Origin: a virus
Taxonomy: Duplodnaviria > Caudoviricetes
DNA length: 64,000 bases
IMG/VR virus record: IMGVR_UViG_3300036798_000249
Coordinates: 3,165 to 67,164 of that record
Reading direction: 5' to 3' (one strand)
The notes under the pieces are model-generated. The model did not search any database and was not told where the DNA came from. It was given only the letters and a program-made list of their open reading frames with translations. Shown piece by piece: positions 8,828 to 42,183 of the stretch. The number at the start of each line of letters is the position of its first letter. The stretch's first letter is position 1. The position numbers were made by a program, and so were the translations under genes.

Positions 8828-10477
8828 TCAACCAATCAAACTTTCAATATCGATCGGGCCACTGATGCGGTCGCGCGCCCGAATGCCCATGAGCATTGCG
8901 AGCGCCACCGCGCCATCGATACGGAACCTGGCCTTGCTCTTGTCGATCTTTCGGAAGCCGGCGGCGTCCATCACCGCGACCGCGTTGGCGACGTTCCAAT
9001 TCAGGCACGGATTGTTTGGATGCTCGATCTTGTGCTCGTCGAGCGCCGCCATGAGCGCGTCGACCGCGGGCCCCATGTCTTTAAATCCTTGCCCCCAGGG
9101 AACGATGCGCAGGCCGTCGCCGCGAGGCGCGCGTCTCACCAGCCGTTGTAGATCATCAGGCGCGGCGCTTGTGTCCTCGTAGGCCTGAAAGCCGATGCGA
9201 TCGAACTCCCGCAGAAGATTCTGCATTCGCCATCGATCATACGCCAGGCCGCGTATCTGGTAGCGCGTCGAAAGCTCGGCGATGAAGCGCGCGAGCGATT
9301 CATGATCGATGGTCCGACCGGGCGTCGTCAGCAAATGCCCGGCGTCGACCCATTCCTCGTATCGCCGATTGCCGCTGCCGAAGTCCCGCGCCGAATGCTC
9401 GCCCAGCCATTCGACGGGCTTCCAAAAGAACGGCTGCACGCGGCAGGGATCGGCGACCGATCCAACAATCAAAGCCGTCAGGTCGTCGACGCTCGACAGA
9501 TCGAGCGCAGCGTAAACCTCTTCGCCGTCGATCAGCTCGGCGGGTCCTATGCATTCTTGCCACATGACGCGACTGATCAGCGTCGAGACGGGTGAGACTC
9601 GTTGATTGAGGAGCAAATTGCGTGTCTTAGGCTCTTCCGCCGGCATTCTGATGGCCTTGACAATGGCCCTGACCAAATCCTCGCGGTCGCGAAACGTGCC
9701 GAGCGCCGGGTTCGCCTTCGCCCATTGTGCCTCGTCCTCGAGCGCGCAGCCTTCGTCGGCGGCATAGAGATGGCAAACGATACTCGGGTCGATGCCCGAC
9801 AGCCCGTCGTCGATCAGCTTCGATAGAATATGCTCCGGGTCATTCGACTGCGTGCTGATCACTATGAACAGCGGCTCGTCGCGGGCGCCGAAACTGGTGT
9901 CGAGGACGTCGTACAGATCGCGGCTCTTCGCCTGCGCCAGCTCGTCGTAGATCACGACACTCGGCAAATATCCGTGTTTGGTTCCGGCCTCGGCCGACAC
10001 CGCGCGATAGATCGATCCGGTGCTGCGTCCGATCATGGTCTTGGTCGAGGAGATGACGTCGATTTTTCTGCGCAACTCGGCGTCTTGCTCGACGAGCTGC
10101 TTGGCGAATTTGAAAACGATGCCGGCCTGGTCGCGGTCGTTCGCCGCGCTATAGATTTCTCCGTTGGGTATCGCCTCGGGCCCGGCCAGGTGGGCGAGCC
10201 CGATGGCGGCAATTAGCGCGGTCTTCCCGTTCTTTCTCGCCACCGAGAGGATCGCACGCCGCACGATGCGGCGCAGACCACGGTGTGGCTCGTAGACGTC
10301 GCGGATGAATCGCTTTTCCCAAGGGTCGAGCTTGAACGGCTTGCCCTGACCGTGCCCGCTCGGGATGGTCAGATGCTGGATGAAATCGATGACTCTTTTT
10401 GCACGCTCGCGCCCGCGCGCGGACCGTTTGATAGACGGTCGGCGACGGTCGGTCGCCGACCCGTCAACAATCGACAC
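8828..10477 (-). CDS. terL: Terminase large subunit
   Basis: Walker A ARKNGKT, YDELA Walker B, ALDLSSVDDLTA nuclease, RIDGAVALAM. Confidence 0.95.
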   Translation of the reverse strand: MSIVDGSATDRRRPSIKRSARGRERAKRVIDFIQHLTIPSGHGQGKPFKLDPWEKRFIRDVYEPHRGLRRIVRRAILSVARKNGKTALIAAIGLAHLAGPEAIPNGEIYSAANDRDQAGIVFKFAKQLVEQDAELRRKIDVISSTKTMIGRSTGSIYRAVSAEAGTKHGYLPSVVIYDELAQAKSRDLYDVLDTSFGARDEPLFIVISTQSNDPEHILSKLIDDGLSGIDPSIVCHLYAADEGCALEDEAQWAKANPALGTFRDREDLVRAIVKAIRMPAEEPKTRNLLLNQRVSPVSTLISRVMWQECIGPAELIDGEEVYAALDLSSVDDLTALIVGSVADPCRVQPFFWKPVEWLGEHSARDFGSGNRRYEEWVDAGHLLTTPGRTIDHESLARFIAELSTRYQIRGLAYDRWRMQNLLREFDRIGFQAYEDTSAAPDDLQRLVRRAPRGDGLRIVPWGQGFKDMGPAVDALMAALDEHKIEHPNNPCLNWNVANAVAVMDAAGFRKIDKSKARFRIDGAVALAMLMGIRARDRISGPIDIESLIG

Positions 10478-15348: not shown

Positions 15349-15716
15349 AGATCATCGCTATACGCCAACCGTGGGCGCATCTGATCGTGACGGGCATCAA
15401 GCCGGTCGAAAATCGCTCGTGGATGGTCAACTATCGCGGCCCGCTCGCGATCCTCGCGAGCAGACGGCGCGCCGAGCAATCCATCGAGGAGATCGAGCGC
15501 CGCTATCGCATTCGCATCCCGCGCGATCTGCCGGTGGGCGGCATCGTCGGGCTCGTCGACCTCGTCGACATCGTCGACGCGCATCCGAGCCGGTTCTTTT
15601 CGGGCCCCTTCGGGTTCGTGCTCGAAAACGCGCGCCCCGTCCCGTTGATTCCGATGTCCGGGCAGCTGAACATCTGGGAAGCACCCGCTCGCGTCAAGAA
15701 ACTGCTCGCCGCCTAA
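15345..15716 (+). CDS. ASCH domain protein
   Basis: AIRQPWAHLIVTGIKPVENRSW..NYRGPL; GGIVG.VDL. Confidence 0.9.
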   Translation: MKIIAIRQPWAHLIVTGIKPVENRSWMVNYRGPLAILASRRRAEQSIEEIERRYRIRIPRDLPVGGIVGLVDLVDIVDAHPSRFFSGPFGFVLENARPVPLIPMSGQLNIWEAPARVKKLLAA

Positions 15717-16902
15717 CTTCACCCCGCAACACCTTCCTGATCGCCGCCATTCGCCGCGTGATCTCCGGGGTTTCCCGATCGAGCAGCGCAGCGGCGGTTT
15801 CCGACTCCATCGCTTCGCCGACGTATTCGAACCCCGCCGTCAGTCGCGTGCGGGCGCGCGTCTTGCTGATGGCGTGACCGCTCTTCTCGCCTCTACTGCT
15901 GGCGCGCCCCAGCGCTGGAGCCCGGTTCATCCTCCATTTCGGGTTGCGCTGCATCGCCGCAATCAACGCCGGGTGCCCGGTCGAGATCATGCAGCGGCAG
16001 CCGACGCCTCGCCACATGGCGCCTAAAATCTCGTTCATCGCCAGACCAATCGAAGCGCCCTGAAAGTCCGGCAGCACCACCGAGCGATGCACCTTCATGC
16101 GCTGACGTCGATCAAAACCGCTGACGAGGCCGACAACCGGCAAAAAAGCCTGGAACGCCACCGGTCGCTCGTCGATGAAACCCACAAAGCAGATCGCGGC
16201 TTTGTTAAGCTTCGCGCTCAAATAGTGGTGGTGAGCGAATAGCTTCCATGCCGAATGATGGACGCGGGCAATCTCCAACTTGATTTTCGGCCGTCCTCGA
16301 AGCGACCTCCAAGCGAACGAATTCGTCGCCGGCGTGAACACCCAATCGGGGTCCAGCCATTCGAGGACATCGTCGTGACAAGTCACCGCCACGAATTTCG
16401 CCGCTCGCCTGCGGACTGTCTTGGCGACCGCCGCGGAGCCGATCTTGCCAACCGTGCGATCAACAACCGAAGTGAATTCGTCGAAGACGCACAGCTCCGG
16501 CCGTTCCGCCAGCGCCCGCGCCAGCGTGGCGCGAAACTGCTCGCCATTCGAGAGCACATGGAACGGGCGCACCCAGGACGGCGGCGACGAAAACCCGACC
16601 GACGACAGCAGCAGCGTGATGTCCTTGATCCCCATCGTGGCCGGGAAGGCATCGACGATCGACTTGTTGCTCGGCCACGTAAAGCCGGTCGTATAGGCCG
16701 GACCGAAAACCTCGCGCGCGATCGACGTCTTGCCGCAACCGCTCGGGCCCACGATCAGGCCGATGTTCCAGTTGCGTTCCTCGAGCGGAAGCATCACCTC
16801 CCAAGTCAGCGCGACCCGCTCGGCCGGCGGCACGTCAAACAAACCCTCGAGCTGCAGAACGCGCGCCGTGCGCTGAATCGCCGTCGAGCGGCTGACGATC
16901 AT
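15694..16902 (-). CDS. ABC-type ATPase fused to GNAT-like acetyltransferase
   Basis: GPSGCGKT, LSNGEQFR, FDEFTS; C-terminal WKLFAHHHYL...VVLPDFQGASIG. Confidence 0.85.
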   Translation of the reverse strand: MIVSRSTAIQRTARVLQLEGLFDVPPAERVALTWEVMLPLEERNWNIGLIVGPSGCGKTSIAREVFGPAYTTGFTWPSNKSIVDAFPATMGIKDITLLLSSVGFSSPPSWVRPFHVLSNGEQFRATLARALAERPELCVFDEFTSVVDRTVGKIGSAAVAKTVRRRAAKFVAVTCHDDVLEWLDPDWVFTPATNSFAWRSLRGRPKIKLEIARVHHSAWKLFAHHHYLSAKLNKAAICFVGFIDERPVAFQAFLPVVGLVSGFDRRQRMKVHRSVVLPDFQGASIGLAMNEILGAMWRGVGCRCMISTGHPALIAAMQRNPKWRMNRAPALGRASSRGEKSGHAISKTRARTRLTAGFEYVGEAMESETAAALLDRETPEITRRMAAIRKVLRGEVRRRAVS

Positions 16903-17486
16903 GCTACCAACGCGCGGCACGTCAGGCCTTCGCCCTGCAGCCGCTTCAACAGTTTGACTTGTTGGACCTCGCTGCCGCATTCGATGACCACATGGAATTG
17001 CGGCTGCAGATTGCCGACGTCGCCAGCCTGGTTGCTCGTCGGCAGCAGCCGTTGCAGCTGCGCCTCAGAAAACCCCGTCAGCGAAAGATATTCGCCGCCA
17101 TCCTGCTGCAGCGCGCCCAATTCGAGCGCCAGCAATTCCGAATCCCAAGTCCCGTTTTCCGACAGCTTGTTGTCGGCGAGGACGTAGGCGCGCAGCTTCG
17201 CCGCCGACCATCCGCGCGCGACGATGACCGGCACCTCGGCCATCCCCAGATGCTTCGCCGCCAGCCAGCGACCCTCGCCGGCCTGGATCACGCCGTTCTC
17301 AGCAATGACCAGCGGCATGGTCCAGCCCCAGGCCTTGATCGATTTGGCGATCTGCTCGACCTGGGCTTGCGGGTGTTTCTTGGCGTTGCGTTCATTCGCC
17401 CGCAATTTGGCGATCGGCCAGCGCTCGACCTTCTCGGCGAGAAACTGCACGCCGTCGCCGCTGCCGTTGCCTTTCCTCGCGCTCAT
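16899..17486 (-). CDS. ParB/Srx N-terminal domain protein
   Basis: NAKKHPQAQVEQIAKSIKAWGWTMPL...IQAGEGR..AA; YVLADNKL. Confidence 0.9.
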   Translation of the reverse strand: MSARKGNGSGDGVQFLAEKVERWPIAKLRANERNAKKHPQAQVEQIAKSIKAWGWTMPLVIAENGVIQAGEGRWLAAKHLGMAEVPVIVARGWSAAKLRAYVLADNKLSENGTWDSELLALELGALQQDGGEYLSLTGFSEAQLQRLLPTSNQAGDVGNLQPQFHVVIECGSEVQQVKLLKRLQGEGLTCRALVA

Positions 17487-18845: not shown

Positions 18846-19313
18846 TCACGCCACAAATTCGAGGTCGTTGGGTGCGACGTAGACCCGGACCAGGCGGCCA
18901 AGGACGTCGAGCAGGACGCGTTCGCGGTCCTTGCCGGATGCTCCGTCGTAGAACCCCGGATGGTCCGCAAACATGCCACGAGTGATCCGAATTCTCGCAC
19001 CACGGCGATGAACCTTCTTCGGTAGACGGATCAAGCCGCGGCGATCTTCACGCCCGCGGATTTCATCCAGGACGTTGTCGCGTAGCACCGCTGGACATTC
19101 GCCGGCGAGCAGGACGCGCAGAATTCCGATCGTGTTGTTGATCGTGTGCCAATGTCTTTCGATGCGAACAAAAATATATCCTGGGAACAGCGGCTCGATC
19201 AGCTTTCGCCGCTTGATGCAAGGCAAGTAATTTTCGAACCCAGAGCGCGCGAGATATCTTGCAGCGGTGCGCTCGCGCTGGGATTCGGTCTGGGCGACGA
19301 TCCAATAGCTCAT
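18846..19313 (-). CDS. NusG/RfaH-family antiterminator
   Basis: YWIVAQT...E, PLFPGYIFV, NTIGILRVL, KOW-like GARIRITRGMF, RVLLDVLGR. Confidence 0.9.
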   Translation of the reverse strand: MSYWIVAQTESQRERTAARYLARSGFENYLPCIKRRKLIEPLFPGYIFVRIERHWHTINNTIGILRVLLAGECPAVLRDNVLDEIRGREDRRGLIRLPKKVHRRGARIRITRGMFADHPGFYDGASGKDRERVLLDVLGRLVRVYVAPNDLEFVA

Positions 19314-19576
19314 TTTTTTGTTTGCTCGCGTTGCTTCATCGACCATTCCATTTCGATCATCCACAGATCAGCCATCGCCTTGTCGAATTCCTCTTGATCG
19401 TGCGGCCTTGCCAGATTGCCACCGTCGAGCAGACGCCCGAACAGCTCAAACAATCGCTTCTCCGCTTCGGCGTAACCGGGAATGTTTTCGATTTTGTATT
19501 CATGCTCGATGTAAATTCCTTCGATCTCCTCTTCTGTGAGCGCTTCGGTTTCCTTGGCGTCTGTTTGTTCTCTCAT
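19310..19576 (-). CDS. Hypothetical acidic protein
   Basis: ATGA overlaps on both sides. Confidence 0.55.
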   Translation of the reverse strand: MREQTDAKETEALTEEEIEGIYIEHEYKIENIPGYAEAEKRLFELFGRLLDGGNLARPHDQEEFDKAMADLWMIEMEWSMKQREQTKK

Positions 19577-20402: not shown

Positions 20403-22616
20403 TCATTTCGAGGCACCGGAATCGGACAACTCATAGTCGAACTCGTTCTGTTGATCGGGTTGTATTTCGGCCTGGGCCTTGACGTTTTTGGGCGCCTGCG
20501 GGTCGCATTCCGAGATGACCCGCATGCGGGCTTTGCGCTGGCGGCCGGAGCGGTATCGGACCTGCTCCAGGCGGTGATCCTGCCGCCATCCTTCGATCAA
20601 TTTGTCGGCCGCGGCCTGGCTCTCGATCTCGAAAAATTCGCGGGCAAAGTCGCCGATGAAGCGCTCGCTGTCGCGCGCGAATGTATAAAACTCGCCGGTC
20701 TCTTTGCCGTTCTGATCGAGCACGCCTTTGTCGACGCGAAGAAAGAATGCGTGAATTTGCGCTTCCAGGACGGTGGGCCCGACCGGCGCCCATTCGATCA
20801 GAACACCGACGTCATCACCGGGCAGCTCGTCGGTCTTGTTGTCGAGCGTGATGGTTTGCTTGCGAAACCATCGTGCGAATGGGCTTTTGATATTGAGGTT
20901 TGCCTTGGCGTCATCGTAGCGAAGATAAAATCCGTGCTCGTTCTCTTTGACGCCCATCGCTTCGGCCTCGCGAGCGGTCATCGGGAACAGCGTCGAGACA
21001 ATGCGGGCGATGCCGATCAGCGCGCCGGCGCCACGTGCGGCGTCGACGTCGCCGGCCATGCCGGTGGCATATTTCTTGGTGTGATGCACGAGGCAGAGCG
21101 CGGTGTTGGTGCGGCGGGCGACTTCACGCCAGAGCATGCCGGCCCATTTCAATTCGCTGTTGCTGTTCTCGTCGCCTTCGAAGGTTTCGGCGAATGGGTC
21201 GACAAAGACGATGTCGATCTGATTTTCCGTGATGATCTTGATGATTTCCTCGAGCCGCGGCGTTCGTGTGAGCGTCTTCGTCTTGGCGTCGAATTTGGCG
21301 ACCACGGCGCTGCCATTGGTGCTATCGAGAACCGCGACGTTGTTGCGGATGGCGATCTGGTCGACCTGCATGACGCGCGCGGCAGCAGCGAGGCGGCGGC
21401 GAATTTCGTCGACGTCGTCTTCGGAATTGATGACCAGGACGCGGAAGGCTTTGCGCGGGCGCCAGCCGGACCAGGGCTTGCCTTGGGCGCAGGCGATACT
21501 GAGCTGCAGCGTCAGCAGGCTTTTGCCGGAACCAGACGGCGCCACCAGTACGGTTATTTGTTTGCGCATGAGCATTCCAGGGATGGCCCAATCGCGCACC
21601 GGCAGCGACGGCTCGTCGATGGGGAATGGATGGACGATGGTGATAACGTCAGCCGCCGGCTGCTGACCAGGCCATCGCAGTGTCATGTCTTGCGACCAGT
21701 CCGGCGCGTCCTCGACCAGCGCATAGAGGACGTCAGCGGTGCCGCCGGCCGCGATCCAATCGGCAATATCGCCCTTCGGCTTGATGTTGGGCCAGACGAC
21801 CCCGAGATCGAGCACGCGCACACGCTGCGCCACCACAGAAAGCGATTTGGCGACCGCCAGGGCGTGATCCTGGCCCGGCAGGATCGGCCGCCCATCGGGA
21901 TGGAACATCGGCTCCTTGGTCTTCGGGTGGGTCTTTTGCGGGTCGTAGTCGGGCAGGATTACGATGTCGGCGCCATCGAAGACCTGGTCGAGCTCCGGTC
22001 GCCACTTGCCGGCGCCGCCCGCATTAGTGGTCGCCGGCAGGCCGAGCCGCCAGAGCGCGTCGCAAGCCTTCTCGCCTTCGGCGATAAAGATGGTGCGCTC
22101 GTTGGCGATCGCCTCGATCAGCTCGGGCAGTCGATAAGGCGCGGGCCGAATGCCGGCCACCGACCATACCCAGCCATCATGAATTTTGCTTGGATCATCG
22201 CCAGAGCGTGGTCGTCGCCGCTGGCGGAAATCCTTGGGATCGAAGCGCACGACCTCGAACAGGAATTCGCCGGCCTCGTCGACATAGGAATAAGTCGCGT
22301 CCAGGCGGCCGAGCTTGCCGGCGCCGCGATTATGCCCGTTCGGCTTCGGCTCTTCCTGATAGTTGGTATTTTGCGTCAGCCATTCGAAACGCTCGGCCTC
22401 GTGCAGGCCGGTCTGCCGCTCGATCAGATCGAGAGTGCCGCCGCCCTCGTTGGCTTCATGATCAAACCAGGTGCCCTTGCGCAGATCGACCGACATCGAT
22501 CCGTGATGACCGTAGCGCAGCTCCAGCTTGGATGATAACGCGCGGTTAGGCTCGCCGAGCAGAATGCGGGCGACCGGCTCCATCAACGTCGCAAGCTGTG
22601 ACTGCGCTTCTATCAA
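20403..22616 (-). CDS. TOPRIM primase-RepA/AAA_25 (SF4) helicase fusion
   Basis: IFIAEGEKACDAL, ILPDYD (TOPRIM); APSGSGKS, FVDPF, LVHHTKK, RGAGAL. Confidence 0.9.
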   Translation of the reverse strand: MIEAQSQLATLMEPVARILLGEPNRALSSKLELRYGHHGSMSVDLRKGTWFDHEANEGGGTLDLIERQTGLHEAERFEWLTQNTNYQEEPKPNGHNRGAGKLGRLDATYSYVDEAGEFLFEVVRFDPKDFRQRRRPRSGDDPSKIHDGWVWSVAGIRPAPYRLPELIEAIANERTIFIAEGEKACDALWRLGLPATTNAGGAGKWRPELDQVFDGADIVILPDYDPQKTHPKTKEPMFHPDGRPILPGQDHALAVAKSLSVVAQRVRVLDLGVVWPNIKPKGDIADWIAAGGTADVLYALVEDAPDWSQDMTLRWPGQQPAADVITIVHPFPIDEPSLPVRDWAIPGMLMRKQITVLVAPSGSGKSLLTLQLSIACAQGKPWSGWRPRKAFRVLVINSEDDVDEIRRRLAAAARVMQVDQIAIRNNVAVLDSTNGSAVVAKFDAKTKTLTRTPRLEEIIKIITENQIDIVFVDPFAETFEGDENSNSELKWAGMLWREVARRTNTALCLVHHTKKYATGMAGDVDAARGAGALIGIARIVSTLFPMTAREAEAMGVKENEHGFYLRYDDAKANLNIKSPFARWFRKQTITLDNKTDELPGDDVGVLIEWAPVGPTVLEAQIHAFFLRVDKGVLDQNGKETGEFYTFARDSERFIGDFAREFFEIESQAAADKLIEGWRQDHRLEQVRYRSGRQRKARMRVISECDPQAPKNVKAQAEIQPDQQNEFDYELSDSGASK

Positions 22617-22636: not shown

Positions 22637-22779
22637 GGTGAGGGCCGGTACCTCGCGGCAGCTTCGGTCACTGGCACCGGCCCTCTGCTTCCCGCCGTGC
22701 TGCCCCGGGGAGTAACCCCGGGCGGTGGGCATGCAACTTGGTGAGGGCCGATGCCGACGCCTGACAGCACCGGCCCTCT
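22637..22779 (-). repeat. Twin hairpins with a shared stem
   Basis: AGAGGGCCGGTGC...CGGCCCTCACC at 22779-22740 and 22686-22637. Confidence 0.6.
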
Positions 22780-22822
22780 TTGCTGGCTGCGAGGTTATGA
22801 GCCTGTTGCCAGCAAACTCGTT

Positions 22823-22916
22823 TGGCTCTCCCGCGAGGATTCGAACCTCGACTCCCCGACGGATGGGAACAGCGTGGGGCAGCACGCCGCGCGTCTACCA
22901 ATTTCGCCACGGGAGA
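22823..22916 (-). tRNA. tRNA-like RNA (type II body, non-canonical anticodon arm, encoded CCA)
   Basis: TCTCCCG TG GCG-AAATTGGTAGA-CGC G CGGCGTG-CTGCCC-CACGCTG TTCCCATCCGTCGGGGAGT CGAGG-TTCGAAT-CCTCG CGGGAGA G CCA. Confidence 0.8.
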
Positions 22917-22921
22917 ATTCA

Positions 22922-23977
22922 TCAAGCAGCATCGTGATGGACCTCATAGTCGTGAGTGACGAAGCCTACACTGGCATCGCCGCGTTGATGCTCATGTATC
23001 CAAAGTGACTTGTTGCCTTTCGGCAACCGCCAATCGTCGCGCCAATGTCCGCGCACCAAATGCGCCCGGCGGCGGATGATACCGATAACCTGCCGCGCGA
23101 TTTTGCGCAGTCCAGCTTGTTCAGGAATGTTGATCGTCAGCACTTTGTAATCAAGGAATCGGCGATAGCTTCCGCGCGCAACGAACCCTCGCGCTGGCAC
23201 GACCTGATGCTCACCGATGATCGGAATCTTGTTGAAAGTAGATAGAAACGCCCACATCATTCGCGCGCGATCCTGTAACGGCTTCGCCCATTCCAGCGAA
23301 GCATCTGCATGGAGCGCGCGCATGCCGACGTTGGGACGGTGATAGCCACGAACTCCGGTCACGAATGCGGACGCAGAGCGCAGCAAATTATCCTCGTCGG
23401 TGAATTGCAAACTCGGCCATGGCAATGGTGTGTCATCGGTGCACCACGTAACCGCAATCGGATAACGATGAATGACTGTCTTGCCATCCGCTTGCATGCC
23501 TATGAAATATTGCACCGAGACGGCAGTCTCGATCTGAGGATGTTGTTCCAGCAACCAACCGATTTTTGTATTCGCATATTTGACAAGGCGCTCGTCTACC
23601 TCATCGATACTGCGGTAACCATGTTCGGCGGTGGCCTCAATTTCCTTTGCGACCATCGCGGCAAGACGGTACTCGATCCATGTAACAGGATGCGGCAGCC
23701 GCGAGAAATATCGGCAATCATCCAGGCGCCCCCACAACCGATTATGCCACCGTTTTTTTTCGCTCTCGCTATCCCATTGTTCTTTGAACTTCAGAGGGCC
23801 GATGAAAAGCTCCACCATCATTGCGTACAGAAAGGCGGCCATGTCGTCCGCCAACACGCAGCGGCGAGCACGTACAAGGGATTTGCGCAATTCCGGATAG
23901 AGCGGATCAGCTTTCTTCTTGAACGTCTCGCGAAAGAGTAGATCGATCAAAAGTTCTGGTTGAGGCGTCTTCGTCAT
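22922..23977 (-). CDS. Hypothetical protein with C-terminal His/Arg motif
   Basis: RAHLVRGHWR...HEHQRGD; start overlaps RuvC-like stop. Confidence 0.7.
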   Translation of the reverse strand: MTKTPQPELLIDLLFRETFKKKADPLYPELRKSLVRARRCVLADDMAAFLYAMMVELFIGPLKFKEQWDSESEKKRWHNRLWGRLDDCRYFSRLPHPVTWIEYRLAAMVAKEIEATAEHGYRSIDEVDERLVKYANTKIGWLLEQHPQIETAVSVQYFIGMQADGKTVIHRYPIAVTWCTDDTPLPWPSLQFTDEDNLLRSASAFVTGVRGYHRPNVGMRALHADASLEWAKPLQDRARMMWAFLSTFNKIPIIGEHQVVPARGFVARGSYRRFLDYKVLTINIPEQAGLRKIARQVIGIIRRRAHLVRGHWRDDWRLPKGNKSLWIHEHQRGDASVGFVTHDYEVHHDAA

Positions 23978-24552
23978 AGCGCGATCGCCTTGTTGAACAG
24001 AGGCGTCAGCCGCAGCGCGAGCGCCGGATCGATCAGCGCGCAGGCGTAGCTCCAGACCGCCAGCGCGTCGGCGGCATTGTCGTCCTTGCAGTCCCAACCC
24101 AGGCAGGCGCAGCGGCGCATGGTCTGGCGCTTGGCGTGCTCGCGCTTGGCGCCGCGATGGCCGATGAAATGCGATCGGACGTCGCCGACGCTGCAGCTCT
24201 CGATCTTGCCGATGCCGCGCAGCTGCGCCACCGCGCGGATGACGCCGTGCAGACCGGCCAGCCGATCGCGCACGGCCCTTGAGGTGTGGTTCTTCATCGC
24301 GTCGGCCGGCAGCATGGCCTCGATCATCACGATGTCAGGTCGCGGCTGCGGCGCCAGGAATTGCGAGGCCCAATCGAGCGCCGCGGCGAAGATGACGTTC
24401 TCGTCGCTGGAGCTGTTGCCAAACCGCACCGAGCCGGCGATCGGCGTCTCGCCCAGGCGGCCAAGCGCATAGCCGCAGCGGGTCGCCACGTCGAGCGCGA
24501 GTATCAGCGGGCGCTTGCGCTCAACCTCGCGCATGCGATCGGCGTCCGTCAT
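23974..24552 (-). CDS. RuvC-like Holliday junction resolvase
   Basis: ILALDVATRCGYA, MIEAM, DDNAADALAVW. Confidence 0.8.
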   Translation of the reverse strand: MTDADRMREVERKRPLILALDVATRCGYALGRLGETPIAGSVRFGNSSSDENVIFAAALDWASQFLAPQPRPDIVMIEAMLPADAMKNHTSRAVRDRLAGLHGVIRAVAQLRGIGKIESCSVGDVRSHFIGHRGAKREHAKRQTMRRCACLGWDCKDDNAADALAVWSYACALIDPALALRLTPLFNKAIAL

Positions 24553-40959: not shown

Positions 40960-42183
40960 TCAGGCTTGGCGGGGGAACGGGATGACGGTGGCGGGCGCGA
41001 GATCGAGCATTGCGGCACGGACTAGGTCCTCGCTGACGTCGATCATGTACCTACCATAGTGACGCCTGATCTGCGTCACGCTCGTATCGTGCTGTGATGC
41101 GGCGAGGCTCGCCGGCACCCGGTTCAATAGCTGGCGGACGATCGACGAGTGGCGCAACGCGTAGCTCGTGATCGACGGCTCAAGGCCAGCGGCGACGGCG
41201 GCCTCGCGGAAAGGATTCTCAAGAGCTTCGTAGTTCCAAGGCGTTCCGTTCCTCCGCAGCAGCAGCGGCTCGTCATCGGGGCGGCTGCCGGCGGCGTCCT
41301 GCAGCTGCGCGATCAGGCTGGGCGGGATCGGGGTTGGGATGCTCGCAGGCTTGTTCACCGCCGCCTTGCGGCCGCCCTTGCGGGATGGCGGCATCAGCAA
41401 GCGCCCCTTGTCGGCTTGCAGATCGCTGACGCGCAGACGCGCGGCTTGGCTGATGCGCGCGCCCGTCGCCGCCAGCACTTCGACCATCAGACCGAAATGC
41501 GCGTCGATCGCATGGGCCGCCGCGACGATGCCGCGGACGGTGTCGTCGTGCAGCACCAGTCGGCGAGCCGTATCGCCTTCCGTCAGGTTGGCGAGCCCCT
41601 TCTTCCACGCGGAGAGATTGGCGATGCGATCGTCGGCCTCCGCAGCCGCGTTGAGCGCGGCGCGCAAGCCCTTCATGGTGCGGTTCACGCCGCCGGCCTT
41701 GCGCCCCTTGTCGACGAGGACCTTACGAAACGTCGCCAGATCGGCGACGGTCAGGACGGCGACGCACTTGCTCGCGAGCGCGGGTGACAGATGGCAGCGA
41801 ACGCGCTTGGCGTTCGCCGGATCGGCGCCCGAGGCCTCGAGACCATGCTGATAGGCGGTCAAGGCCTGATCGACCGTGACGGGCGCGCCCGCGCCTGCGG
41901 CGGTCTGCCCGCGAGCGATCAGCTTGGCGCGATCCTGCGCCTGGTAGAAGGTCAGGATGGTTTGCCCGTCGGCCTGGTCGTGGTCGTCGGCCTGGGCGAA
42001 TTTTCTGATCCATTCCTTGCCGTGGCCGTCGGTGGCCTCGACCGACCATGTGCCGGCGGTCTCGTTGCGCCGATAACCGAGCTTGATCGCGCGGTCGATG
42101 CGCTGCCAATAAGGCTTCTTGCGCAGCGGCAGCCGGAGACGGGCGGTGGCGGATTCGAGCTTCGTTGATCTGATCCTTGGCAT
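40960..42183 (-). CDS. int: Tyrosine recombinase (integrase)
   Basis: N-terminal arm-binding LGYRR..GTW; TGARISQ, YALRHS, HDTS..IRRHYG. Confidence 0.92.
   Translation of the reverse strand: MPRIRSTKLESATARLRLPLRKKPYWQRIDRAIKLGYRRNETAGTWSVEATDGHGKEWIRKFAQADDHDQADGQTILTFYQAQDRAKLIARGQTAAGAGAPVTVDQALTAYQHGLEASGADPANAKRVRCHLSPALASKCVAVLTVADLATFRKVLVDKGRKAGGVNRTMKGLRAALNAAAEADDRIANLSAWKKGLANLTEGDTARRLVLHDDTVRGIVAAAHAIDAHFGLMVEVLAATGARISQAARLRVSDLQADKGRLLMPPSRKGGRKAAVNKPASIPTPIPPSLIAQLQDAAGSRPDDEPLLLRRNGTPWNYEALENPFREAAVAAGLEPSITSYALRHSSIVRQLLNRVPASLAASQHDTSVTQIRRHYGRYMIDVSEDLVRAAMLDLAPATVIPFPRQA

What the first reader, a model, noticed from the sequence alone, without database searches (positions are those of the whole stretch)
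22823..22916. tRNA-like RNA with a re-engineered anticodon arm
Seen: perfect 7-bp acceptor, canonical T arm (TTCGAAT), Leu-type D loop, long variable arm, G discriminator and encoded CCA, but a 20-nt anticodon arm (7-bp stem, 6-nt loop CTGCCC) instead of 5 bp plus 7 nt. Established: SerRS and LeuRS do not read the anticodon; G73 plus a long variable arm is a Ser identity set; host anticodon nucleases target phage infection. Inference: an aminoacylatable non-decoding RNA (decoy, synthetase sponge, amino-acid donor, frameshift suppressor) or a processing signal; intact stems argue against random decay.
Basis: partly seen in the sequence, partly recalled or inferred. Interest (0 to 1): 0.75.

Follow-up and report, generated by a model that had tools for sequence, protein, structure and literature searches.

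The report
Phage tRNA look-alike that cannot decode
A soil phage carries a conserved RNA gene that copies the body of its host's leucine tRNA but has a remodelled anticodon arm and tip, so it almost certainly cannot read codons; it is probably a tRNA mimic, a kind of phage RNA known since phage T5 whose function is still unknown.

Summary
On the minus strand at 22823-22916 lies a 94-nt cloverleaf with a perfect 7-bp acceptor stem, a Leu-type D arm, a long variable arm, a canonical T arm and a G-CCA end. Its anticodon arm has a 7-bp stem and a 6-nt loop, CUGCCC. It is not a one-off indel. Three other phage contigs carry the same arm with an invariant loop and compensatory changes in stem pairs 5, 6 and 7. 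Three further relatives keep the acceptor, D and T parts but carry other long hairpins in place of the anticodon arm. Each phage record searched has one copy. The gene sits in different places, nearly always a few bases after a stop codon on the same strand. The nearest cellular relatives are alphaproteobacterial tRNA-Leu(CAA) genes. The phage RNA differs from them at U1-A72, C2-G71, G73 and the anticodon arm. The best reading is a processed, stable, non-decoding tRNA mimic that acts in trans, perhaps as a decoy for a tRNA-binding factor. Its function is untested. The closest known kind is the T5 RNA1-3 "tRNA-like stable RNAs". An earlier look in this scan noted similar non-decoding look-alikes in a T5-like phage.

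The parts
22823..22916 (-). tRNA-like RNA gene, 94 nt, full cloverleaf with an encoded G-CCA end
   Evidence: Sequence; ARAGORN forced call; covariance model R1 scores 110.8 bits and is the only strong hit in the window; covariation.
22870..22889 (-). Remodelled anticodon arm: 7-bp stem CGGCGUG/CACGCUG with the 6-nt loop CUGCCC at 22877-22882
   Evidence: The loop is invariant in window, L160, L228 and L231. Stem pairs 5, 6 and 7 changed on both sides and pair 2 changed G.U to G-C.
22891..22907 (-). Leu-type D arm: 3-bp stem and an 11-nt loop with A14, A15, G18G19
   Evidence: With A13 read as G (the form the other family members carry), the string is the same as in Bradyrhizobium and other alphaproteobacterial tRNA-Leu genes and in 97 IMG/VR loci.
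22853..22869 (-). Long variable arm: 5-bp stem UUCCC/GGGGA with a 7-nt loop
   Evidence: The stem is invariant in four homologues while the loop varies in length and sequence. The L243 version, UUCCUUCGGGAGU, is identical to the arm of alphaproteobacterial tRNA-Leu(CAA).
22834..22850 (-). T arm CGAGG-UUCGAAU-CCUCG
   Evidence: Two stem pairs changed on both sides in L231, CGAGG to CCUGG.
22823..22833 (-). 3' acceptor strand CGGGAGA, discriminator G73 at 22826, CCA at 22823-22825
   Evidence: G-CCA is invariant in all 7 family members. Acceptor pair 5 changed C-G to U-A in L231.
22922..24097 (-). Upstream co-directional ORF of unknown function (start uncertain). Its stop, a tandem UGAUGA, ends 2 nt before the tRNA-like RNA
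   Evidence: In 6 of 7 family members the RNA gene starts 3-15 nt after the stop of a same-strand gene.
22640..22815 (-). Four GC-rich hairpins between the tRNA-like RNA and the primase gene: H1 22780-22815, H2 22743-22778, H3 22691-22729, H4 22640-22685. H2 and H4 share the arm GAGGGCCGGUGC
   Evidence: The region is 92% identical to L160 against 76% for the primase gene. Changes keep the pairing. H3 and H4 are kept in L228; the hairpins were not seen in the first 90 nt downstream in L231, L235, L243 or L274. They are therefore probably a separate element.
20403..22616 (-). Downstream primase/helicase gene (AAA_25). The source calls a 726-aa product, so the true start is probably near 22583

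Best explanation
This is a functional phage gene for a tRNA mimic that does not decode.

Origin (shown by comparison). The RNA keeps the body of an alphaproteobacterial tRNA-Leu: the same D arm and hinge nucleotides, a long variable arm, a T arm and an encoded CCA. Three things differ: the first acceptor pairs (U1-A72, C2-G71, U3-A70), the discriminator (G73 instead of A73), and the anticodon arm, which is a 7-bp stem with an invariant 6-nt loop CUGCCC instead of 5 bp plus 7 nt.

Maturation (inferred). It is co-transcribed with the flanking genes and cut out by RNase P at the 5' end and by the usual tRNA 3' processing. The product would be a stable L-shaped RNA with a CCA end.

Why it does not decode or charge (inferred). 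A stem 2 bp too long and a loop 1 nt too short should keep it out of the decoding centre. By published E. coli identity rules G73 blocks LeuRS and TyrRS, C2-G71 and the lack of G1-C72 block SerRS, and there is no Asn anticodon. It is therefore probably not charged.

Action (inferred, the weakest step). It most likely works in trans by occupying a protein that recognises tRNA-Leu-shaped RNA. A tRNA-targeting defence nuclease is the leading candidate and a synthetase is an alternative. The anticodon arm would be an exchangeable specificity module, since close relatives carry other hairpins on the same scaffold.
For: Structure and selection:
- The cloverleaf with a 7-bp arm is kept in window, L160, L228 and L231, with 6 pairs changed on both sides, 99.1% of cells paired and 0 of 500 shuffles as good.
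- The loop CUGCCC is invariant while 5 of 7 stem pairs vary.
- L235, L274 and L243 keep the acceptor, D and T parts (92-96% core identity) but carry other long hairpins.

Distribution:
- There is one copy per phage record searched.
- Its location differs between phages: after RuvC, RecT, TerL, the capsid gene or an unknown gene. That argues for a free-standing gene and against a cis element of the primase gene.

Origin and identity:
- The nearest cellular sequences are canonical tRNA-Leu(CAA) genes with the same D arm and variable arm but G1-C72 and A73.
- The identity rules come from PMC9976931.

Context and precedent:
- In relatives the slot upstream of the primase gene holds anti-defence genes: an Acb2/Tad1-like gene next to the RNA in L228, and Lar in L227.
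- T5 RNA1-3 are annotated tRNA-like stable RNAs.
Against: - There are no expression, processing or charging data.
- The family has only 7 members, and the four with traced metagenome origins have neighbouring sample numbers, so the covariation rests on few independent events.
- The decoy role rests on architecture and loose neighbourhood only. In L231, L235, L243 and L274 the neighbours are structural or recombination genes, not anti-defence genes.
- No candidate binding partner was identified.
- The identity rules come from E. coli, while the host is probably a member of the Rhizobiales.
- The RNA always lies inside an operon, just after a stop codon, which would also fit a processing role.
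Confidence: 0.5

Rival explanations
1. It is a processing punctuation mark. The tRNA shape only recruits RNase P and 3' tRNA-processing enzymes, which cut the polycistronic mRNA between the upstream and downstream genes and so uncouple their stability or translation. The released RNA has no function of its own.
For: In 6 of 7 members the element starts 3-15 nt after a same-strand stop codon, and a same-strand gene follows. L235 and L243 have an unstructured AC-rich leader right after the CCA. The acceptor stem, T arm and RCCA make a good RNase P substrate by established knowledge.
Against: By established knowledge RNase P and RNase Z need little more than the acceptor/T minihelix. Here the D arm, hinge, variable-arm stem, 7-bp anticodon stem and the 6-nt loop sequence are all conserved or covary. 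Phage genomes are compact, so tight spacing is expected for any small gene.
Confidence: 0.2
2. It is an aminoacylated but non-decoding tRNA. It would be charged (Ser, Leu or another amino acid) and used as an amino-acid donor outside the ribosome or as a synthetase sponge.
For: The acceptor stem is intact, CCA is encoded, and the LeuRS hinge elements are kept because the D-arm string matches host tRNA-Leu. LeuRS and SerRS do not read the anticodon (PMC9976931).
Against: [quoted passage not shown] C2-G71 is an antideterminant for SerRS, and G1-C72 and G2-C71, conserved in bacterial tRNA-Ser, are missing. Asn identity needs the GUU anticodon. No aminoacyl-tRNA transferase gene was found nearby.
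Confidence: 0.1
3. It is a decoding tRNA with an unusual loop, for example a frameshift suppressor or a reader of GGC or GGGC through G-C-C(-C) in the loop CUGCCC.
For: The loop begins C-U-G, as a C32-U33-N34 loop does. Marine phage relatives of similar build have a normal 7-nt loop, CUGUUUA.
Against: Stem pairs 6 and 7 are kept by compensatory change, so the loop really is 6 nt on a 7-bp stem. There is no purine at position 37 and no compensating change elsewhere in the cloverleaf. Sister copies carry 10- to 16-bp hairpins with tetraloops that cannot decode.
Confidence: 0.04
4. It is a decaying tRNA-Leu pseudogene, or a DNA-level element such as an attP site or a replication origin beside the primase gene.
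For: It derives from tRNA-Leu. It lies upstream of the primase gene in three phages. The phage has a tyrosine integrase.
Against: Compensatory changes occur in three stems and the loop is invariant. The location differs in L231, L235, L243 and L274. The integrase gene is about 18 kb away. The RNA is full length rather than a 3' tRNA fragment.
Confidence: 0.06

Closest known systems
Phage T5 RNA1, RNA2 and RNA3 (GenBank AY543070: 'tRNA-like stable RNA with unknown functions' and 'putative tRNA-like RNA'); from my own memory also T4 species 1 and 2 RNAs
   Same: These are phage-encoded, tRNA-shaped stable RNAs with no usable anticodon. T5 RNA1 also has a Leu-type D arm (GGAAUUGGUAGAC), a long variable arm, a T arm and an enlarged region in place of the anticodon arm. 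Their function is unknown.
   Different: There is no significant sequence or model similarity: R1 against T5 RNA1 gives E 0.12 for a partial hit. The T5 RNAs lie inside a large tRNA cluster, whereas this is the only tRNA-like gene of its phage. The arm here is a short, regular 7-bp/6-nt hairpin. The host clade differs.
Alphaproteobacterial tRNA-Leu, especially tRNA-Leu(CAA) (L298-L303; Bradyrhizobium genome G006)
   Same: They share the D arm, G26, the CGG start of the anticodon stem, the variable arm UUCC-UUCG-GGAGU (identical in L243), the T-loop type and an encoded CCA.
   Different: Canonical tRNA-Leu has G1-C72, A73 and a 5-bp/7-nt anticodon arm. The phage RNA has U1-A72, C2-G71, G73 and a 7-bp/6-nt or longer arm.
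Phage tRNAs that escape tRNA-targeting defences (van den Berg et al. 2023, PMC10264068; T5 tRNA-Lys against PARIS, PMC11464382; phage tRNAs against retrons, PMC11555353)
   Same: These are phage-borne tRNA genes with altered anticodon arms, linked to host tRNA nucleases.
   Different: They are working, decoding tRNAs that replace cleaved host tRNAs. This RNA cannot decode, so at most it could act as a decoy. No decoy of this kind turned up in the library searches.
Engineered 'tRNA scaffold' for expressing recombinant RNA in E. coli (for example PMC3753655)
   Same: A hairpin of choice replaces the anticodon arm, while the acceptor, D and T parts ensure processing and stability. The family here shows that same pattern, with at least three different inserts on one scaffold.
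   Different: This one is natural, not engineered. The analogy concerns how it works and is not a claim of family membership.
Class II-bodied tRNA-Asn(GUU)-like genes of marine phages
   Same: They have U1-A72, G73, CCA, a Leu-type D arm and a long variable arm.
   Different: They have a canonical 5-bp/7-nt arm with the loop CUGUUUA. Core identity is only 73-79%, similar to the 69-81% with ordinary tRNA-Leu, so common descent is not shown.

Membership tests
Canonical elongator tRNA (Rfam RF00005) | A match to the tRNA covariance model at or above its gathering score | tested here: not met
   No RF00005 match in the window at the gathering score or at E<=10. Among relatives only L243 passes, at 41.8 bits.
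Canonical elongator tRNA (Rfam RF00005) | A 5-bp anticodon stem and a 7-nt loop with U33 and a purine at 37 | tested here: not met
   The stem is 7 bp, with pairs 6 and 7 kept by compensatory changes. The loop is the 6-nt CUGCCC.
Canonical elongator tRNA (Rfam RF00005) | A 7-bp acceptor stem, a 5-bp T stem with a UUCRANY loop, a D loop with G18G19, U8 and A14 | tested here: met
   Read directly from the sequence; the stems covary.
Bacterial tRNA-Leu | Discriminator A73, crucial for E. coli LeuRS (PMC9976931) | tested here: not met
   G73 in all 7 family members. G73 is a listed antideterminant for LeuRS.
Bacterial tRNA-Leu | Leu-type D loop and hinge (A15-U48, G18G19, A20a) and a long variable arm | tested here: met
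   Apart from A13 (G in the other members and in host tRNA-Leu), the D-arm string is identical to host-clade tRNA-Leu, and U48 is present.
Bacterial tRNA-Ser | G1-C72 and G2-C71 with G73, a long variable arm and a Ser-type D arm | tested here: not met
   The RNA has U1-A72 and C2-G71, and C2-G71 is an antideterminant against E. coli SerRS. The D arm is Leu-type. Only G73 and the long arm fit.
Bacterial tRNA-Asn | Anticodon GUU plus G73 | tested here: not met
   G73 is present, and U1-A72 as well, but the loop CUGCCC holds no GUU anticodon (rule).
tRNA-Sec or allo-tRNA | An 8/5, 8/4 or 9/3 acceptor/T-stem arrangement | tested here: not met
   The arrangement is the standard 7/5.
tmRNA | A tRNA-like domain with G3.U70 plus a tag reading frame | tested here: not met
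   ARAGORN finds no tmRNA. Pair 3:70 is U-A.
Phage tRNA-like stable RNAs (T5 RNA1-3 type) | Phage-encoded, with tRNA-like acceptor, D and T parts and no usable anticodon arm | tested here: met
Phage tRNA-like stable RNAs (T5 RNA1-3 type) | Accumulates as a stable, processed RNA in infected cells | not testable with these tools
   No transcript data are available for this uncultured phage.
Phage tRNA-like stable RNAs (T5 RNA1-3 type) | Sequence homology to the T5 RNAs | tested here: not met
   Model R1 gives only E 0.12 and 0.2 partial hits on RNA1 and RNA2.

The most novel reading that the evidence does not exclude
Phages of soil Alphaproteobacteria use a captured tRNA-Leu body, made unchargeable and non-decoding, as a natural 'tRNA scaffold'. 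It displays exchangeable hairpins (CUGCCC type, L235/L274 type, L243 type). These would act as RNA decoys against host factors that bind tRNA-Leu-shaped or class II tRNAs, such as tRNA-cleaving defence nucleases. That would be an RNA-based counter-defence distinct from the known strategy of supplying cleavage-resistant decoding tRNAs.
Probability: 0.2. Interest if true: 0.85.

Novelty: new variant of a known kind. Interest (0 to 1): 0.55.

Why it matters
Phage tRNA-like RNAs that cannot decode have been annotated since the T5 and T4 era without any known function. This family is small and clean. It has one copy per phage and clear covariation. It has an identifiable cellular ancestor, host-type tRNA-Leu, and a short list of changes: the first acceptor pairs, the discriminator and the anticodon arm. 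Together these changes look like deliberate disarming of both charging and decoding. Sister phages swap only the anticodon-arm hairpin. That makes a direct test of the idea that phages deploy tRNA mimics as decoys or sponges, which matters now that many bacterial defences are known to cleave tRNAs. If instead it is only a processing signal, it would be a bacterial counterpart of tRNA punctuation.

Tried and rejected
- Rfam at the gathering score and at E<=10 gave no tRNA or other credible family for the window copy. The weak mascRNA, HgcF and CRISPR-DR20 hits are noise.
- A nucleotide search of GenBank phages with the 400-nt region found nothing.
- Exact and degenerate pattern scans:
  - The first three viral scans for the arm found only L160.
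  - The first metagenome scan found nothing.
  - The second gave 59 hits, of which 58 were chance matches in GC-rich coding DNA. One was a canonical tRNA-Leu(GAG) with the same 5-bp stem.
  - The genome-contig scan found only canonical tRNA-Leu genes with G1 and, where the 3' end was in view, A73 (L162 ends ACC C), mostly from Bacilli MAGs.
- Model R1 found no further copy in the window, in 69 primase-related loci (446 kb), or in 453 sampled Alphaproteobacteria genomes at a family-level score. This means 'not found in those searched'; only 28 candidates per genome were scored.
- No neighbouring gene is conserved across all seven loci.
- The neighbouring 391-aa ORF and the L160 inserts have no informative domains.
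- The ATPase at 15694-16980 is not a TmcA-like tRNA acetyltransferase by Pfam.
- A long-range pairing was considered. The anticodon arm (CGUGCUGCCCC) is complementary to a downstream GGGGCAGCACG in the window and L160. I rejected it as a conserved feature because the arm changes in L228 without compensation and L231 lacks the partner.
- Literature searches found no paper on phage tRNA-like decoys or on T5 tRNA-like RNA function.

Full report
**What is there.** The window is most of a 67,164-bp IMG/VR virus record with direct terminal repeats. On the minus strand at 22823-22916 lies a 94-nt sequence that folds as a cloverleaf:
- acceptor UCUCCCG/CGGGAGA;
- U8 and G9;
- D arm GCG-AAAUUGGUAGA-CGC, then G26;
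- a 20-nt anticodon arm CGGCGUG-CUGCCC-CACGCUG;
- variable arm UUCCC-AUCCGUC-GGGGA followed by GU;
- T arm CGAGG-UUCGAAU-CCUCG;
- discriminator G and an encoded CCA.

ARAGORN calls it tRNA-Ser(gct). It does so only by drawing a 5-bp anticodon stem with two mismatches, and it calls a homologue tRNA-Gln(ctg). Both names are forced fits. Rfam's tRNA model does not match at all.

**Setting.** The RNA gene lies in a minus-strand operon of replication and recombination genes:
- an MT-A70 methylase;
- a RuvC-like resolvase;
- an unknown ORF whose tandem stop UGAUGA ends 2 nt before the RNA;
- the RNA itself;
- four GC-rich hairpins;
- a primase/helicase;
- further on, a NusG-like gene.

The phage is temperate. 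Its tyrosine integrase lies about 18 kb away, so the RNA is not beside an attP site. The closest named cellular homologue of the primase is in a Bradyrhizobium prophage, at 48% identity. This points to a Rhizobiales host.

**It is not a one-off.** I found six relatives:
- L160 and L231, through DNA pattern scans of IMG/VR;
- L235, L243 and L274, through scans for the conserved 3' and 5' parts;
- L228, through a primase homologue.

Window, L160, L228 and L231 share the 7-bp/6-nt arm. The loop CUGCCC is invariant while the stem varies: CGGCGUG/CACGCUG in the window, CGGCGUC/GGCGCCG in L228, and CGACACC/GGUGCCG in L231. Pairs 5, 6 and 7 changed on both sides. Pair 2 switches between G.U and G-C. 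One A.C mismatch occurs in L231. Acceptor pair 5 and two T-stem pairs also changed on both sides.

On the four-sequence alignment 99.1% of cells are paired, and 6 of 27 pairs have compensatory changes. None of 500 shuffles and none of the slid controls come close. RNAalifold predicts the same structure independently.

**A scaffold with exchangeable arms.** L235, L274 and L243 keep the acceptor, D arm, T arm and G-CCA, with 92-96% identity over those parts. In place of the anticodon arm they carry other hairpins:
- an irregular stem of about 16 bp in L235;
- a related one in L274, which also lacks the variable arm;
- a 10-bp stem with four G.U pairs and a UCCA loop in L243.

Each of the five further phage records searched has exactly one high-scoring copy, and the window has none besides this one.

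**Location varies.** The gene lies:
- upstream of the primase gene in window, L160 and L228;
- after a RecT-like gene in L235;
- 3 nt after the stop of the large terminase gene in L231;
- 15 nt after the stop of the capsid gene in L274;
- upstream of a probable terminase small-subunit (terS-like) ORF (my guess from position only) and the large terminase gene (TerL) in L243.

It is therefore a free-standing accessory gene, not a cis element of the primase gene or a replication origin. It is absent from 69 other loci of primase-related phages. It was also not found in 453 sampled alphaproteobacterial genomes.

**Where it came from.** The best cellular matches of the family model are canonical alphaproteobacterial tRNA-Leu(CAA) genes, at 72-77 bits against 84-111 bits for family members. 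They have the same D arm, G26, a CGG start of the anticodon stem, and a variable arm UUCCUUCGGGAGU that is identical to that of L243. All five Bradyrhizobium tRNA-Leu genes share the D-arm string.

The phage RNA differs from these tRNAs at the first acceptor pairs (U1-A72, C2-G71, U3-A70), the discriminator (G73 instead of A73) and the anticodon arm.

**Can it be charged or decode?** According to the identity review PMC9976931:
- E. coli LeuRS depends on A73 and on hinge elements, not on the anticodon or variable arm.
- C2-G71 is an antideterminant for SerRS.
- G1-C72 and G2-C71 are conserved in bacterial tRNA-Ser.
- Asn identity needs the GUU anticodon plus G73.

The RNA keeps the whole LeuRS hinge but has G73 and C2-G71, so no class II identity set is complete. 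This is an inference from E. coli rules, not a test.

Decoding is unlikely as well. The two extra stem pairs are real, because they covary. The loop lacks a position 38 and a purine at 37, nothing elsewhere in the cloverleaf compensates, and sister copies carry hairpins that cannot decode.

**Most likely mechanism.**
- Shown: a conserved, structured, tRNA-Leu-derived gene with a selected non-canonical arm, in single copy and mobile among intergenic sites.
- Inferred: it is co-transcribed and excised by RNase P and 3' processing, which gives a stable uncharged L-shaped RNA. That RNA acts in trans by binding something that recognises tRNA-Leu-shaped RNA, and the arm supplies specificity.

Weak support for a counter-defence role comes from neighbours. 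In L228 the RNA sits 140 nt from an Acb2/Tad1-like gene (E 2.8e-14). In L227 the same slot upstream of the primase gene holds Lar (E 7.7e-8). Many bacterial defences are now known to cleave tRNAs (papers listed). I found no paper that describes a decoy of this kind.

The main rival is a pure RNase P punctuation signal. It explains the position right after stop codons. It does not explain the conservation of the D arm, variable stem, anticodon stem and loop.

**Closest known.** GenBank AY543070 annotates T5 RNA1 and RNA2 as 'tRNA-like stable RNA with unknown functions' and RNA3 as 'putative tRNA-like RNA'. RNA1 has a Leu-type D arm, a long variable arm, a T arm and an enlarged region in place of the anticodon arm. 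The likeness is architectural only, since the family model does not match RNA1 significantly.

**Verdict.** This is a new variant of a known but unexplained kind of phage RNA, and its function is untested.

Noticed in passing
window 22640-22815 (minus strand): Four GC-rich hairpins fill the gap between the tRNA-like RNA and the primase gene. H2 and H4 share the arm GAGGGCCGGUGC, seen as four copies in two inverted pairs. The region is 92% identical to L160 against 76% for the primase gene, and the differences keep the pairing (G.U to G-C). L228 keeps H3, with a compensated stem, and H4 but lacks H1 and H2. None has a U tract. A phage NusG-like gene at 18846-19364 suggests regulated read-through.
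   Followed up: partly
window 22695-22706 against 22878-22888: Read on the minus strand, an 11-nt stretch (GGGGCAGCACG) between H3 and H4 is perfectly complementary to the 5' strand plus loop of the anticodon arm (CGUGCUGCCCC). The same holds in L160. In L228 only the 6-nt loop stays complementary, and L231 has no partner.
   Followed up: partly
L236, L242, L244, L248, L251, L262, L263, L266, L272, L275, L278 (also L258, L259, L264, L237, L252 with very long variable arms): Low-GC phage contigs, probably marine (environment not checked), carry class II-bodied tRNAs with U1-A72, G73, CCA, a Leu-type D arm, a long variable arm and a canonical arm. The loop is CUGUUUA or UUGUUUC, that is anticodon GUU with a pyrimidine at position 37. 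ARAGORN calls them tRNA-Asn(gtt). L255 has the normal Asn loop CUGUUAA on the same body.
   Followed up: partly
L257:4763-4851, L261:5177-5250, L268:772-845: Other phage tRNA-like genes (acceptor UGUCCUG, Leu-type D arm, T arm) have a stub in place of the anticodon arm, for example a 4-bp stem with a GACA loop. They have no variable arm and no encoded CCA.
   Followed up: no
L228:2763-2990 and L227:2765-3004: In relatives the slot immediately upstream of the primase gene holds small anti-defence genes: an Acb2/Tad1 hairpin-domain protein (E 2.8e-14) and a Lar restriction-alleviation protein (E 7.7e-8). L160 has an unannotated small ORF of roughly 80 aa there.
   Followed up: partly
L160:4610-6100: Compared with the window, L160 has about 1.5 kb extra between the tRNA-like RNA and the homologue of the upstream ORF. 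It includes a 330-aa protein with a C-terminal HTH_17 (excisionase-like) domain. Similarity to the window resumes almost exactly at the first base of the RNA.
   Followed up: partly
window about 41134-41553: A tyrosine integrase domain (PF00589, E 9.6e-15) lies in a 439-aa frame, so the phage is probably temperate.
   Followed up: no
L036 (about 9651-9750, plus strand): A high-GC phage contig has a Leu-type 5' half (GCUGAUG UG GCGAAAUUGGUAGACGCG) followed by a long GC-rich insert before a TGGTTCG T-arm-like motif. It may be another non-canonical tRNA-like gene.
   Followed up: no
L235 and L243, first 30 nt after the CCA: Both have an AC-rich, unstructured leader (caaacaaacaaaggag... and aacaaacaaacgaacagg...) that runs into the next gene's start.
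   Followed up: no
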